From Rhodoferax sp. (lineage in GTDB: Bacteria; Pseudomonadota; Gammaproteobacteria; Burkholderiales; Burkholderiaceae_C): a stretch of DNA of 64,000 nucleotides. The DNA is taken from the NCBI GenBank assembly GCA_031365665.1, contig JANLYO010000195.1, positions 5,026 to 69,025 of the forward strand, read 5' to 3'. Under the pieces are notes generated by a model that was given only the letters and a program-made list of their open reading frames with translations, was not told where the DNA came from and made no database searches. Positions within the stretch are counted from its first letter, which is position 1; each line of letters begins with the position of its first letter. Position numbers and translations under genes: made by a program. Below are positions 40,306-60,339 of this stretch, piece by piece.

Positions 40306-41511
40306 TTAAAAAGCGGCGTACAGACGCTGGCGGTTGAAGACGCCGTGCGGGTCGAATTCGGTTTTGAGCCTTTGTGCAATCTGTAAATTTATATTTGACA
40401 CATCAATACCAAAGTTTTTTTGATAGTTAGGCCTCGTATCTTCTGAATAGTTTGTAATAAATAACGAAGTATTTTTGATTGTATTTTTATCTATATTTGT
40501 TATAAAATCTATTTCAGACGATGGTATTTTGACCCACCGCAAGGCCCCATGCCACTCCATGAGTTGCGGCCATGGCAGCGCCAGCACCGGTGTGGTTTGC
40601 GCCACACTCATGCGCCACACAGCAAAGTCCTGTTGCGGCGCGGCGCTGAAAAATGGCAGCTTCAAGTCGCGGCACTGCTGCCATTCGATGGCGGCCTGGG
40701 TGTTGTCCATCACCTGGCCACCCAACGTGCCGGTCATCGTTTGAATGGCCGCCTGCACAGCCGCTTTGGCGCCGCGCAAACGCAGATGCAGCCGGCCCGG
40801 ACCCGTGGGCGCGCGGGCGTCAAGCGCCTGCCAGCGGCTCGCATTGAGTGGCAGGGGCTGGCCGCCCCAGAGGTTGAGTTGCCGCAGCGCGGTGGCCTGG
40901 TCCATCTGAAACACCAGCGTGGCTTCGGCGGGCGACACGGGCAAGACCTTGAGCGATACCTCGGTGATCAGCCCCAGCGTGCCCATGGCGCCCACCATCA
41001 GGCGCGACACGTCATAACCCGCCACGTTTTTCATCACCGTGCCGCCAAAACGCAGCAACTCGGCGCGGCCATTGAGCAGTTCGAGCCCCAGCACGTAGTC
41101 GCGCACGCCGCCCACGCTGGCCCGTGCAGGGCCTGCCAGCCCGGCGGCCACCATGCCGCCGATGGTCGCCGTCTGGTTGCCAAAATGGGGCGGCTCGAAG
41201 GGAAGGCACTGGCCTTTTTCAGCCAGCGCCGCTTCCAGCTCGGCCAGAGGTGTGCCGGCGCGCACCGTCACCACGAGTTCGCTGGGCTCGTAATTGACGA
41301 TGCCACGCAAGGGCGTCGTGTCCAGCAAATCGCCTTGTCTTGCGTGAAGCTGGCGCAAGCCGGAGGGCACGTAAAAATCTTTGCTGCCGCCGCCGCGTAT
41401 CCGCAACGATGTTTGGTTGGCAGCGGCGCTTTTCACCTGATCGGTGATGCGCTGCAGCGCGGCGCTGTACGCGCCGGGAGCGCCTGAAGATTTATCGGCG
41501 TTGTCAGGCAC
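40306..41511 (-). CDS. glcE: glycolate oxidase FAD-binding subunit, with an AT-rich repeat-derived segment near the C-terminus
   Basis: FAD-binding PCMH-type N-terminal domain (RIRGGGSKDFY...) and C-terminal ...RLKTEFDPHGVFNRQRLY. Residues ~PSSEIDFITNIDKNT...SNINLQIAQ are encoded by AT-rich DNA. Confidence 0.75.
   Translation of the reverse strand: MPDNADKSSGAPGAYSAALQRITDQVKSAAANQTSLRIRGGGSKDFYVPSGLRQLHARQGDLLDTTPLRGIVNYEPSELVVTVRAGTPLAELEAALAEKGQCLPFEPPHFGNQTATIGGMVAAGLAGPARASVGGVRDYVLGLELLNGRAELLRFGGTVMKNVAGYDVSRLMVGAMGTLGLITEVSLKVLPVSPAEATLVFQMDQATALRQLNLWGGQPLPLNASRWQALDARAPTGPGRLHLRLRGAKAAVQAAIQTMTGTLGGQVMDNTQAAIEWQQCRDLKLPFFSAAPQQDFAVWRMSVAQTTPVLALPWPQLMEWHGALRWVKIPSSEIDFITNIDKNTIKNTSLFITNYSEDTRPNYQKNFGIDVSNINLQIAQRLKTEFDPHGVFNRQRLYAAF
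40371..40530 (-). repeat. AT-rich patch inside glcE containing repeat copy E (core 40426-40457, sense orientation)
   Basis: The minus-strand core TTACAAACTATTCAGAAGATACGAGGCCTAAC matches copy B at 24 of 32 positions. There is a sharp composition drop relative to the rest of the gene. Confidence 0.65.
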
Positions 41512-41516
41512 GGTGC

Positions 41517-57338: not shown

Positions 57339-57480
57339 GAGATATTTCCCCAAATATTTAACGAACACCTCTACCAAGCAATATGCAGGCCATCAAAAGA
57401 AAACATTTAAAATCAAATGCTTACAAACTTTTTAACGTAACGAATTGTATGGGTGTTAAATTTTTCGACACGGATCCCCG

Positions 57481-60339
57481 TTACAAATTCGGTGCCAGCA
57501 AGCGCTGCAAATCCTTTTCCGTGACCCCGCGCCGCGCCGCCAGATCTTTGAGCTGGTCGTCGCCAATCTTGCCGACGTTGAAATAAACGCTGTCCGGGTG
57601 CCCAAGGTAGAAGCCGCTGACGCTGGCGGCAGGCGTCATGGCGAGGCTCTCGGTGAGCGACATGCCGATCTCTTCACATTGCAGCAGCGCAAACAGGTCT
57701 TTTTTCACGCTGTGGTCGGGGCAGGCGGGGTAGCCGGGCGCGGGGCGGATGCCTTGGTATTTTTCGGCGATCATGTCCACGTTCGTGAGCGCCTCCTGCG
57801 GCGCGTAGCCCCATAAATCGGTGCGCACGCGGTGATGCAAGCACTCGGCGAAGGCTTCGGCCAGCCGGTCGGCCAGGGCTTTGAGCATGATGGAGGAATA
57901 GTCGTCCAGGTCGTCCTGAAAGTATTTTTCTTTCTTTTCGGCACCGATGCCGGCGGTGACGGCGAATACACCCACGTAATCTTGCCCGGCCCGCGTTTCT
58001 ACGCTATTTTGGCTGCTGGGCCTCGCATTGATTGCGTTATCAGATCCTGAATTAGCAGCATCTTCAGGCACCAGTGCAGGGGCCACAAAATCGGCCAAAC
58101 AACGGCTCGGTCGCATGATGCCGTCAATCACCTGCTTTTCGGTTTGCTGGCGCAGGCCATGCCAGGTCAGCGCGACCTCGGTGCGCGACTCGTCGGTGTA
58201 GAGCGCGATGTCGTCGTCATTCACGCTGTTGGCGGGGTACAGACCGATCACGCCGTTGGCGGTGAGCCAGCGGCCCTCGATCAGGCGCTTCAACATGCGC
58301 TGGCCGTCGGCGTAGACGCGCACGGCTTCGGTGCCCACCACCTCGTCTTTCAAGATGGCCGGGAAGGGTCCGGCCAGATCCCAGGTCTGGAAGAAGGGGC
58401 CCCAGTCGATGTATTTGGCCAATTCGGCCAGGTCAAAGTTTTTGAACACGCGCCTGCCCAGAAACTTCGGTTTGACGGGGCGGTGTTGCGACCAATCGAC
58501 GGGCGTTTTGTTGGCGCGCGCTTTGGCCAGTGGCCACATCGGCGTGACCTTCTTGTTGGCATGTTGCAGACGCACCTTCTCATAGTCGGCATTGAGCTCC
58601 GCTACGTATTGGGTGGCCCGATCCGACAACAATGACTGCGCCACTCCGACGCTGCGTGAGGCGTCCGGCACATACACCACCGGCCCTTCGTAATGCGGCG
58701 AAATCTTGACGGCGGTGTGCACCCGCGAGGTGGTGGCGCCACCGATCAGCAGGGGGATTTTGCGAATTCGGAAGTGGTCGTCCTTCTGCATTTCCGCCGC
58801 AACGTATTGCATCTCCTCCAGGCTGGGGGTAATCAGGCCGCTGAGACCCACAATGTCGGCACCTTCCACCTTGGCGCGGGCCAGAATCTCGTGGCAGGGA
58901 ACCATCACGCCCATGTTGATGACTTCGAAGTTGTTGCATTGCAAAACCACCGTGACGATGTTCTTGCCGATGTCGTGCACATCGCCTTTCACAGTGGCGA
59001 TGATGATCTTGCCCTTGGTGCGCACATCGCGGCCGGCGGCTTCGTCCTGCTTCTTTTCTTCTTCAATGTAGGGGATGAGATGCGCCACCGCCGACTTCAT
59101 CACGCGGGCGCTCTTGACCACCTGGGGCAGAAACATCTTGCCCTGGCCGAACAGGTCACCGACGATGCTCATGCCGGCCATCAGCGGGCCTTCGATCACA
59201 TGCAGCGGACGGCCGCCGTCCTTCAGCAGCTTCTGGTAGGCCTCTTCGGTGTCTTCGACGATGAAGTCGGTGATGCCATGCACCATGGCGTGGGCCAGGC
59301 GCTGCTCCACCGCCACGGGCTTCTCGGCATTGCCGCGCCAGTCGTTCTTCTTGCTCTCGTCCTTGGCGCCGGCACGGGCGGAGTCGGCAATTTCGACCAG
59401 GCGCTCGCCCGCATCGGCGCGGCGGTTCAGCACCACGTCTTCCACGCGCTCGCGCAGGACCGGTTCAAGCTCGTCATATACCCCCACCATACCCGCGTTG
59501 ACGATGCCCATGTCCATGCCGGCCTTGATGGCGTGGTACAGGAACACGGTATGGATCGCCTCGCGCACCGGGTCGTTGCCACGGAACGAAAAACTCACGT
59601 TGCTGACGCCGCCGGACACCTTGGCCCCCGGCAGGTTGGCCTTGATCCAGCGCGTGGCTTCGATGAAATCAACCGCGTAGTTGTTGTGCTCTTCAATGCC
59701 AGTGGCCACGGCGAAGATGTTGGGGTCGAAGATGATGTCTTCAGGCGGGAAGCCCACTTCGTCCACCAGAATGCGGTAAGCGCGCTCGCAAATCTCGGTC
59801 TTGCGCGCGTAGGTGTCGGCCTGGCCTTTTTCGTCGAACGCCATCACCACAGCGGCAGCGCCGTAACGCCGCACCAGCTTCGCCTGGTGTTTGAACTGCT
59901 CAACGCCTTCTTTCATCGAGATGGAGTTGACGATGCCCTTGCCCTGAATACAGCGCAGGCCGGCTTCGATGACCTCCCACTTCGAGCTATCGACCATGAT
60001 CGGCACGCGGGAAATGTCGGGCTCAGAAGCGATCAGGTTCAAAAACCGCACCATCGCGGCCTTGCTGTCGAGCATGGCCTCGTCCATGTTGATGTCGATC
60101 ACCTGGGCGCCGTTTTCCACCTGCTGGCGGGCGACCGACAAAGCTTTATCGAACTCGCCGTTCAGAATCATCTTGGCGAACGCTTTGGAGCCGGTGACGT
60201 TGGTGCGCTCGCCAATGTTGACAAACAGCGTTTTGTCGTCGATCAGCACCGGCTCCAGGCCGGACAGGCGCATGGGAGCGACGCTGCTTTCGGCATCTTG
60301 CGCGGCTGGGTTGGACGTGACGTGTAGGGCGTTGGGCAT
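57481..60339 (-). CDS. metH: methionine synthase lacking the N-terminal homocysteine-binding domain (pterin-binding, B12-binding and AdoMet-activation domains)
   Basis: It starts at the pterin domain ([13 protein letters not shown]). B12 motif [11 protein letters not shown], and C-terminal [14 protein letters not shown]. 952 aa. Confidence 0.85.
57996..58066 (-). repeat. AT-richer in-frame patch in metH related to the AT-rich repeat family
   Basis: The sense strand ...ATCAATGCGAGGCCCAGCAGCCAAAATAGC... shares AATGCG(A/T)GGCC and an identical 12-mer CAGCAGCCAAAA with copy D. It encodes ...[16 protein letters not shown]... in a loop that I recall as very short in E. coli MetH. Confidence 0.45.

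What the first reader, a model, noticed from the sequence alone, without database searches (positions are those of the whole stretch)
40426..58029. All three CDS-embedded repeat copies are in sense orientation and read in the same element frame
Relative to the element core, the host reading frame is identical in all three genes. glcE reads GAT ACG AGG CCT (D-T-R-P). The MFS gene reads AAT ACG AGG GCC (N-T-R-A). metH reads AAT GCG AGG CCC (N-A-R-P). In the same frame, the intergenic copies are also free of stops across the core: IANYLYNAWPRA in D, IAIYLNNTWTRV in F and IANYSTYTRLEC in B. This is visible in the tails of ORFs 33379..33702, 49646..50167 and 16981..17283. So the element has one stop-free frame and orientation, and only insertions in that phase appear to survive in genes. 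This is a selection filter like that proposed for in-frame palindromic elements in Rickettsia. It implies that these insertions are expressed as peptide.
Basis: seen in the sequence. Interest (0 to 1): 0.6.

Follow-up and report, generated by a model that had tools for sequence, protein, structure and literature searches.

The report
In-frame AT-rich repeat relics in genes
Three housekeeping genes of this GC-rich bacterium carry read-through leftovers of an old AT-rich intergenic repeat, all in one frame, but genome-wide the repeat also sits inside genes in the opposite orientation, so this is a Rickettsia-like stop-codon filter and not a one-orientation rule.

Summary
glcE, an MFS gene and metH each contain a sense-strand patch that reads the repeat core in one register (ATA GCA AAC ... 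ACG NGG CCN, 'IANY..NTRP'). The window copies score weakly against a 331-copy genome profile (E = 0.085, 3, none). Orthologues rescue them: seven genus members carry a 22-26-residue metH insert reading 'SIANY', 'LIANN' or 'GANYGNNTRP', which is absent from four genus members and all outgroups. glcE and MFS orthologues show the same core in the same frame.

In the whole genome, 29 copies lie inside well-scored genes (E<10; a reversed-genome control gives 2). Fifteen are sense and 14 antisense. Two mirror-image frames dominate (10 and 11 copies), but five of six orientation/phase classes occur. Antisense copies in KsgA, a HAD hydrolase, rhodanese and AtuA are solid. KsgA has a 21-27-residue insertion shared by three species.

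Stop codons explain the sense frame. They do not explain the antisense preference. glcE shows no length gain, so "insertion" is not the whole story.

This is an RPE-like phenomenon in a free-living betaproteobacterium, a new member of a known kind. No expression data could be obtained.

The parts
40306..41511 (-). glcE-like FAD-binding subunit gene that hosts patch 1
   Evidence: Translation. Pfam FAD_binding_4, E 9e-19. Orthologues found in 31 of 31 relatives searched.
40352..40539 (-). AT-rich in-frame patch in glcE (GC 0.29). The repeat core lies at about 40427-40471 and reads SLFITNYSEDTRPNY.
   Evidence: (E=0.085). Orthologues of five other genus genomes (G012, G006, G011, G007, G014) carry the core in the same place and frame. 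There is no length difference from element-free orthologues.
50315..51718 (+). MFS transporter gene that hosts patch 2
   Evidence: Translation. Pfam MFS_1, E 1e-23.
50916..50973 (+). Decayed repeat copy in the central loop of the MFS protein, reading VAFDTHNTRADAE
   Evidence: nhmmer E=0.22 and E=3. The G006 orthologue reads KIIANKSIDSTAY from AAAATAATAGCTAACAAATCAATAGATTCGACGGCC in the same loop. Own loop is about 25-50 aa longer than in most orthologues; the G006 and G004 loops are longer still.
57481..60348 (-). Split metH (pterin-binding, B12-binding and activation domains) that hosts patch 3
   Evidence: Translation. Pfam matches; the Met_synt_B12 match spans 303 aa against a 273-position profile.
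57982..58077 (-). 32-codon segment of metH ([32 protein letters not shown]). About 26 of its codons are an element-derived insertion.
   Evidence: Seven genus members have 28-32 codons here reading IANY/IANN/IATY and NNTRP. Four have the 6-7-codon empty site, as do all outgroups. E. coli MetH (1MSK) has 3 residues where the query has 29.
17156..17213 (+). Intergenic repeat copy B (left module)
   Evidence: nhmmer E 1e-9.
29257..29312 (+). Intergenic repeat copy between convergent genes
   Evidence: nhmmer E 1e-10.
33583..33635 (+). Intergenic repeat copy D (left module). The right hairpin ACCCCAAAATGGGTA lies near 33682-33696.
   Evidence: nhmmer E 8e-12. Sequences.
50104..50153 (+). Intergenic repeat copy F, just upstream of the MFS gene
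   Evidence: nhmmer E 4e-8. Element copies lie beside the MFS gene in the loci of at least 7 genus members, consistent with orthologous retention of copy F; their exact position relative to the gene was not checked.
52318..52363 (+). Intergenic repeat copy, weaker match
   Evidence: nhmmer E 0.0016.
54936..54993 (+). Intergenic repeat copy
   Evidence: nhmmer E 5e-9.

Best explanation
The three patches are old, partly decayed copies of the left module (about 60-80 nt) of a roughly 130-nt AT-rich dispersed repeat.

The repeat. Its left module is TTGCTATA-N5-TATAGCAAACTAT-N10-ACGTGGCCTAGAGGCCAATTTTT. A variable spacer and a TTAACA..TGTTAA or ACCCAAAATGGGT hairpin follow. About 330 copies populate this genome, mostly just past stop codons and between convergent genes.

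How copies end up in genes. Copies that entered coding DNA persist only where three conditions hold. The reading frame stays open, the total length change is a multiple of three, and the site is a tolerant loop or interdomain linker. Such copies are then read through as N/I/K/S/T-rich peptide and slowly erode by point mutation and small deletions.

Why the frame is shared. The register seen in the window (ATA GCA AAC ... ACG NGG CCN) is the only sense frame without a consensus stop. TAG in ATAGCAA, TAA in TATAAT and TAG in CCTAGAG close the other two. That explains why all three agree.

Why orientation is free. An equally large class sits antisense, nearly all in the mirror-image frame that reads the palindrome arms as GCT-ATA / ATA-GCA and gives '(L/S)GHVN...IATKN'.

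Shown: family membership, the orientation and phase table, insertion versus empty sites in metH and ksgA, and open-frame conservation across species.

Inferred: translation into peptide, the mode of arrival (transposition or conversion), and the reason for the antisense frame bias.
For: Family: 331 copies at E<1e-3, of which 303 are intergenic. 120 of 289 lie between convergent genes (41%, against 13% of all gene pairs).

metH: a 22-26-aa insertion in 7 genus members reads TCA ATA GCA AAC TAT (G007) and AAT AAT ACG AGA CCT AGT GGC CAA AAT (G014). Different halves have decayed in different lineages. Four genus members and all outgroups have the empty site.

glcE and MFS: orthologues carry the core in the same frame.

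Genome survey in well-scored genes at E<10: sense phases 0/1/2 = 10/1/4 and antisense = 2/11/1, with a reversed-genome control of 2 hits.

Stop-free fractions of 246 intergenic copies: sense 0.40, 0.18, 0; antisense 0.01, 0.28, 0.29.

Solid antisense copies: HAD hydrolase (E 1e-9), C152 oxidoreductase, rhodanese, AtuA, HrpA and KsgA. The KsgA antisense copy is a 21-27-aa insertion shared by G000, G011 and G006 and absent in G007 and an outgroup.

Location: patches fall in linkers, namely between AtuA and its ferredoxin-like domain, between the two rhodanese domains, in the MFS central loop and in the UvrD C-terminal linker.

Precedent: stop-free frames determine which repeat families occur inside genes (PMC2229807; PMC10969869).
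Against: The window copies themselves match the profile weakly or not at all.

In glcE the 176-188-nt AT-rich stretch brings no length gain within the genus and only +7 aa against two outgroups. The G007 orthologue has just a 35-nt core inside otherwise homologous GC-rich sequence. Pgi, AtuA and rhodanese gain only 0-9 aa. Simple insertion does not explain these.

The antisense bias (11 against 1 for two frames that are equally often stop-free, P=0.003) is not explained by stops. It is not explained by hydropathy either, since the preferred frame is the more hydrophobic one.

No target-site duplication, terminal inverted repeat or near-identical copy pair was found; the best pair is 91-92% identical. 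Mobility is therefore inferred only from filled and empty sites.

Gene calls came from my own codon-usage caller, not a standard annotator. There is no expression evidence.
Confidence: 0.75

Rival explanations
1. The element is a selected cis-acting site, for example a binding site for a nucleoid, topoisomerase or termination factor at 3' ends of genes. It would be written into genes in situ by short-patch conversion or by point mutation under selection, not by insertion. The coding sequence then adapts around it, and AT-richness spreads from the core.
For: - glcE shows length-neutral replacement, with a core-only state in G007.
- Pgi, AtuA and rhodanese patches have 0-9 aa of gain.
- The family is old, with no recent copies, and conservation is concentrated in ATAGCAA and ACGTGGCC rather than spread evenly.
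- Element copies flank the MFS gene in at least 7 species, apparently orthologous to copy F.
- Position is strongly biased to just after stop codons and between convergent genes.
Against: - In metH, different halves of the core have decayed in different lineages. ATAGCAAAC is lost in G000, G012 and G014; ACGAGACC is lost in G007, G005 and G010. That is neutral erosion, not maintenance.
- metH, ksgA, UvrD and HrpA show real length gains of 17-30 aa.
- The motif is absent from about 147 of 151 genera of the family.
- No binding protein is known.
Confidence: 0.15
2. One reading: the element has a single permissive orientation and frame, so only sense-strand, phase-0 insertions survive in genes.
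For: All three window copies, plus the UvrD, YgiQ and C302 copies, read IANY..NTRP. Phase 0 is the only sense frame without a consensus stop.
Against: 14 of 29 embedded copies are antisense. One is a hit at E 1e-9 in a Pfam-confirmed HAD hydrolase, and one is a multi-species KsgA insertion. Four sense copies use phase 2, with TAG changed to GAG.
Confidence: 0.03
3. The three patches are unrelated to the repeat. They would be AT-rich low-complexity loops that resemble it by chance.
For: Profile scores are weak: E=0.085, E=3 and no hit. A 44-nt match at 75% identity is close to the background of GC-rich chance repeats in the window.
Against: The reversed-genome control gives 0 hits at E<1. Orthologous patches match much better and in the same register. 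The G007 glcE matches copy B at 16 of 17 core positions, as read directly from the sequences.
Confidence: 0.05

Closest known systems
Rickettsia palindromic elements (RPE; Ogata et al. 2000 and 2002, as summarised in PMC10969869 and PMC2229807)
   Same: A dispersed repeat is found both between genes and fused in frame inside conserved housekeeping genes. It is read through as extra peptide, sits in tolerated positions, and is shared by related species.
   Different: This is not Rickettsia, and sequence similarity was not tested. The host is a free-living, GC-rich (60%) betaproteobacterium, and the element is AT-rich. RPEs are 105-146 bp with terminal inverted repeats that fold into one long stem-loop. 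This element folds as three separate local hairpins, and only 1 of 40 copies pairs end to end. About 9% of its copies are intragenic, against nearly half for RPE-1. Some copies replace native codons without any length gain.
Stop-codon rule for intragenic MITEs (Correia 107-bp versus 155-bp forms; CIR; ERIC; Delihas 2007/2008, PMC2229807)
   Same: Repeat forms with an open frame are found fused inside genes, and forms with stops in all frames stay intergenic. This is the same filter that explains the shared sense frame here.
   Different: Here the filter was quantified per orientation and phase. It fails to explain the antisense preference, because the two open antisense frames are used 11 to 1.
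REP/BIME mosaic elements and REPIN-RAYT systems
   Same: Hundreds of copies. Extragenic, at 3' ends and between convergent genes. Mosaic of short palindromic modules, with the right hairpin occurring in either orientation. An old family.
   Different: REPs are GC-rich and rarely intragenic. The one RAYT-like gene of this genome (C48:1003-1707) is flanked by a different inverted repeat, and RAYT-like genes also occur in relatives that lack the element.
DNA uptake sequences in coding regions (USS/DUS; my own knowledge)
   Same: The motif occurs in both orientations inside genes, with preferred reading frames and in poorly constrained protein segments. It can arise without any length change.
   Different: Density is about 1 per 13 kb rather than about 1 per kb. 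The unit is much longer (about 60-130 nt). There are true 17-30-aa insertions. No link to competence was tested.

Membership tests
RPE-like in-frame intragenic repeat (functional kind) | The same repeat family occurs both between genes and in frame inside conserved protein genes | tested here: met
   303 intergenic copies and 29 copies inside well-scored genes, including metH, ksgA, uvrD, hrpA, pgi and glcE.
RPE-like in-frame intragenic repeat (functional kind) | Filled and empty sites among related species show that the patch is an addition to the protein | tested here: met
   metH gains 22-26 aa in 7 of 14 genus orthologues. KsgA gains 21-27 aa in 3 of 4 genus sequences aligned. This is not met for glcE.
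RPE-like in-frame intragenic repeat (functional kind) | The inserted segment is translated | not testable with these tools
   Only indirect evidence exists: the frame is kept open in 6-7 species.
RPE family proper (Rickettsia) | Element of 105-146 bp with terminal inverted repeats that folds into one long stem-loop | tested here: not met
   ViennaRNA folds of 40 copies: only 1 pairs its 5' end with its 3' end. The rest form three local hairpins.
RPE family proper (Rickettsia) | Sequence homology to RPE-1 to RPE-10 | not tested
   No RPE sequences were compared. The host belongs to a different class of bacteria.
MITE | Terminal inverted repeats and target-site duplications | tested here: inconclusive
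   No terminal inverted repeats were seen. metH filled and empty sites were compared, but no clear duplication could be read from these old, decayed copies.
MITE | Recent mobility, shown by near-identical copies | tested here: not met
   The best pair is 91-92% identical over 135 nt. The median best partner shares 62% of 138 positions.
REP/REPIN-RAYT | The cognate RAYT gene is flanked by the repeat | tested here: not met
   The RAYT-like gene at C48 is flanked by CAAATTAATTGGGGTCAGA / TCTGACCCCAATTAATTTG. An element copy merely lies nearby.
REP/BIME | Extragenic, at 3' ends of genes, in hundreds of copies, built from palindromic modules | tested here: met
Uptake signal sequence | Very high density (about 1 per kb) of a short motif | tested here: not met
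   About 330 copies in 4.3 Mb.

The most novel reading that the evidence does not exclude
Part of the intragenic spread may not be insertion at all. It could be a length-neutral, templated overwriting of tolerant coding segments by the repeat core, through short-patch conversion from intergenic copies, followed by outward spread of AT-richness. The glcE series suggests this: a core-only state in G007, then about 170-nt AT-rich segments of identical length in four other species. The unexplained 11:1 choice between two equally open antisense frames would then reflect how the patch is written or selected at the DNA level, not peptide tolerance.
Probability: 0.15. Interest if true: 0.7.

Novelty: new member of a known kind. 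Interest (0 to 1): 0.42.

Why it matters
In-frame repeat insertions in housekeeping genes are best known from Rickettsia, an obligate intracellular bacterium with a decaying genome. This is the same phenomenon in a free-living, GC-rich freshwater betaproteobacterial genus. The element's AT-richness makes every copy stand out, and 18 related genomes give filled, empty and eroding states of the same sites.

That makes it a convenient natural system for three questions:
- How do proteins such as MetH, KsgA, UvrD and HrpA tolerate 20-30 foreign residues?
- How fast do such patches erode or ameliorate?
- What, beyond stop codons, decides which reading frames survive?

It also serves as a practical warning for annotation. 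AT-rich patches in GC-rich genes of this lineage are not assembly errors or frameshifts.

Tried and rejected
1. Replication-linked polarity of the element. Orientation shows no contig-level homogeneity (P=0.50) and no link to GC skew (Fisher P=0.31), so the window's run of '+' intergenic copies is chance.
2. Hydrophilicity as the reason for the preferred antisense frame. Rejected, because the preferred frame encodes the more hydrophobic peptide (KD 1.03 against 0.09).
3. A RAYT transposase as the mobilising enzyme. The only RAYT-like gene is flanked by a different inverted repeat, and the gene family also occurs in genomes without the element.
4. A MITE-like single stem-loop or terminal inverted repeats. 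Not found.
5. Right-module hairpins inside the large coding patches. None are recognisable; only the left module and its T-rich tail are.
6. Rfam. No family matches the element. The only hit in the window is an SAH riboswitch.
7. A first family-wide pattern scan used the wrong spacer length (12 instead of 10 N) and was uninformative. It was repeated correctly.
9. 'glcE patch is a plain insertion'. Rejected by orthologue lengths.
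Full report
**What is there**

The window has 60% GC. It carries short AT-rich intergenic stretches that share a motif. I built an nhmmer profile from six window copies and iterated it once over the whole 4.3-Mb assembly. It found 331 copies at E<1e-3. The consensus is TTGATTGCTATAATATATATAGCAAACTATCCATATAATACGTGGCCTAGAGGCCAATT.

Aligned full copies show a unit of about 130 nt:
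- this left module, which holds a palindrome TTGCTATA-N5-TATAGCAA and a small hairpin TGGCC-TAGA-GGCCA followed by a T-run;
- about 35 variable bases;
- a hairpin, either TTGTTAACA-yGGG-TGTTAACAA in either orientation or ATACCCAAAATGGGTAT.

Gene context comes from my own codon-usage gene caller (3,974 genes, 87% coverage). By those calls, 303 copies are intergenic. 120 of 289 lie between convergent genes, which is 41% against 13% of all neighbouring gene pairs. The module typically starts 15-75 nt after a stop codon. Orientation is unrelated to contig or GC skew.

The family is old. The best pair is 91-92% identical and the median best partner shares 62% of positions. Element copies flank the MFS gene in at least seven genus members, apparently orthologous to copy F. 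A pattern scan of one genome from each of 151 genera of the family found the motif in quantity only here (226 matches) and in one other genus (121), with traces in two more.

**Checking the observation**

The three intergenic translations and their ORF registers are correct too. The host genes are a GlcE-like FAD-binding subunit, an MFS transporter and a split MetH. All three patches are on the coding strand and in the register ATA GCA AAC ... ACG NGG CCN.

On profile score alone the patches are marginal: glcE E=0.085, MFS E=3, metH nothing. A reversed-genome control gives no hit below E=1 and two below E=10, while 36 real hits lie inside genes at E<10 (29 after removing duplicates and weakly called genes), so the E-values are conservative.

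The decisive evidence is comparative.

- *metH.* Seven genus members have 28-32 codons where four genus members and all outgroups have 6-7 (three others are intermediate, at 12 codons). The extra codons read TCA ATA GCA AAC TAT (G007), TTA ATA GCA AAC AAT (G005) and GGA GCT AAT TAC GGA AAT AAT ACG AGA CCT AGT GGC CAA AAT (G014). E. coli MetH (1MSK) has 3 residues where this protein has 29.
- *glcE.* The orthologues from G012, G006, G011, G007 and G014 carry TTATTTATAGCTAAC...ACGAGACCT variants at the same place and frame.
- *MFS.* The G006 orthologue reads AAA ATA ATA GCT AAC ... ACG GCC in the same loop.

**Testing the interpretation genome-wide**

I tabulated every profile hit lying at least 30 nt inside a gene, by orientation and by the codon position of the first A of ATAGCAAAC. 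Counts below are for well-scored genes, with overlapping hits removed.

| Threshold | Sense phase 0 / 1 / 2 | Antisense phase 0 / 1 / 2 |
|---|---|---|
| E<10 | 10 / 1 / 4 | 2 / 11 / 1 |
| E<1 | 4 / 0 / 3 | 1 / 9 / 1 |

A uniform six-class null is rejected (P about 0.001-0.003). Orientation is balanced at 15 sense to 14 antisense.

The antisense class is not an artefact:
- a HAD hydrolase copy (C136) scores E=1e-9;
- the rhodanese, AtuA and KsgA host genes are Pfam-confirmed on the called strand;
- shown in element orientation, the embedded copies display the whole left module with its tail, for example TATTTTTAATAGCTGTTTGTTCATTTTTTACGTGGCTTATAGTCTCAATTTTTTC in hrpA;
- the KsgA copy is a 21-27-residue insertion shared by three species and absent from a fourth genus member and an outgroup.

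At the peptide level the two classes are recognisable as 'IANY..NTRP' (sense) and '(L/S)GHVN...IATKN' (antisense). An independent scan for AT-rich patches in GC-rich genes found 37 patches. Twelve of them are at least 130 nt long, and most of those twelve carry one of the two signatures.

That condition is met.

**Why these frames**

I counted stop-free frames over the left module in 246 strong intergenic copies.

| Orientation | Phase 0 | Phase 1 | Phase 2 |
|---|---|---|---|
| Sense | 0.40 | 0.18 | 0 |
| Antisense | 0.01 | 0.28 | 0.29 |

The sense result follows from fixed stops: TAG in ATAGCAA, TAA in TATAAT and TAG in CCTAGAG. It matches a principle already described for Correia, ERIC and CIR elements (PMC2229807) and for RPEs (PMC10969869).

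Two things are not explained by stops.
- Four sense copies use the 'impossible' phase 2, with TAG mutated to GAG ('LEQTI' in a P450 and in Tmk). Stops can therefore be repaired after arrival.
- The two open antisense frames are used 11 to 1 (P=0.003).

The favoured sense and antisense frames are mirror images about the palindrome. Both read GCT-ATA ... ATA-GCA. The disfavoured mirror pair reads TGC-TAT ... TAT-AGC. Hydropathy does not account for this, since the preferred antisense frame is the more hydrophobic one. Cysteine or TGC avoidance is a possible cause but was not tested.

**Insertion or not**

I compared lengths with orthologues using a concatenated query and direct alignments.

| Gene | Length change |
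|---|---|
| metH | +22 to +26 aa |
| KsgA | +21 to +27 aa |
| UvrD C-terminal linker | about +20 to +30 aa vs outgroups |
| HrpA | about +17 aa vs an outgroup |
| MFS loop | about 25-50 aa longer than most orthologues (two orthologues have longer loops) |
| glcE | none within the genus; +7 aa vs two outgroups |
| Pgi | +6 to +9 aa |
| AtuA and rhodanese | 0 to +5 aa |

In glcE the 176-188-nt AT-rich stretch has exactly the length of the GC-rich segment in element-free genus members. The G007 orthologue has only a 35-nt core inside homologous GC-rich sequence. Most of that AT-rich DNA therefore overlies positions of native codons.

Three routes could give this: insertion followed by trimming, short-patch conversion, or AT-drift spreading from a nucleus. 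I could not decide between them. Similar length-neutral 'overwriting' has been noted by other agents of this scan in unrelated lineages (e1-2032139, e1-2388343). Those notes are unchecked and are only a lead.

**What it is not**

- Not a classical MITE or RPE by structure. There are no terminal inverted repeats, and only 1 of 40 copies pairs end to end.
- Not demonstrably a RAYT-mobilised REP.
- Not an Rfam family.
- Not an uptake-sequence-like motif by density.

It resembles REP/BIME elements in location and mosaic build. It resembles RPEs in what it does to genes.

**Limits**

- Gene calls are from my own caller.
- Only one genome could be surveyed exhaustively.
- No RNA or protein evidence was available, so 'expressed as peptide' rests on open-frame conservation across 6-7 species.
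- How the copies arrive is unknown.

**Verdict**

This is a new member of a known kind, of moderate interest. Two unexplained features are worth following: the mirror-frame bias and the length-neutral glcE patch.

Noticed in passing
window 60360-60455 (-): An SAH riboswitch (RF01057, 55 bits) lies directly upstream of the split metH gene.
   Followed up: no
G000 contig C48:893-1790 (outside the window): A RAYT-like Y1 transposase gene (PF01797, E 5e-11) is flanked by inverted repeats CAAATTAATTGGGGTCAGA / TCTGACCCCAATTAATTTG. This is a second, different repeat. A copy of the AT-rich element lies at C48:1809-1859 just upstream.
   Followed up: partly
window 17156-54993 (intergenic copies): All intergenic copies in the window are on the + strand. 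Genome-wide there is no contig-level or GC-skew polarity, so this is chance.
   Followed up: yes
G093 (another genus of the family), e.g. C5:131356-131384: A second genus carries 121 matches of a variant core, ATAGCAAACTATGACCATTTGACGGGGGC. The embedded HAD-hydrolase copy of G000 (C136:3928-3979, ...CTATTGCCATTTGACGTGGCC) resembles this subfamily.
   Followed up: no
G000 C223:16380-16520; C28:15536-15725; C309:4018-4210; C216:2791-2955: The KsgA, HrpA, AtuA-like and UvrD genes carry 140-190-nt AT-rich in-frame patches (N/I/K-rich peptides) that contain the repeat's left module.
   Followed up: partly
window 33679-33709 and 50188-50218: The right-hand hairpin module (AAACCCCAAAATGGGTA) of copies D and F occurs in opposite orientations relative to the left module. 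The two modules therefore behave as separable units.
   Followed up: partly
window 7043-7924 and 8603-9548: A tandem pair of paralogous genes is 80-91% identical (repeat families D1-D3).
   Followed up: no
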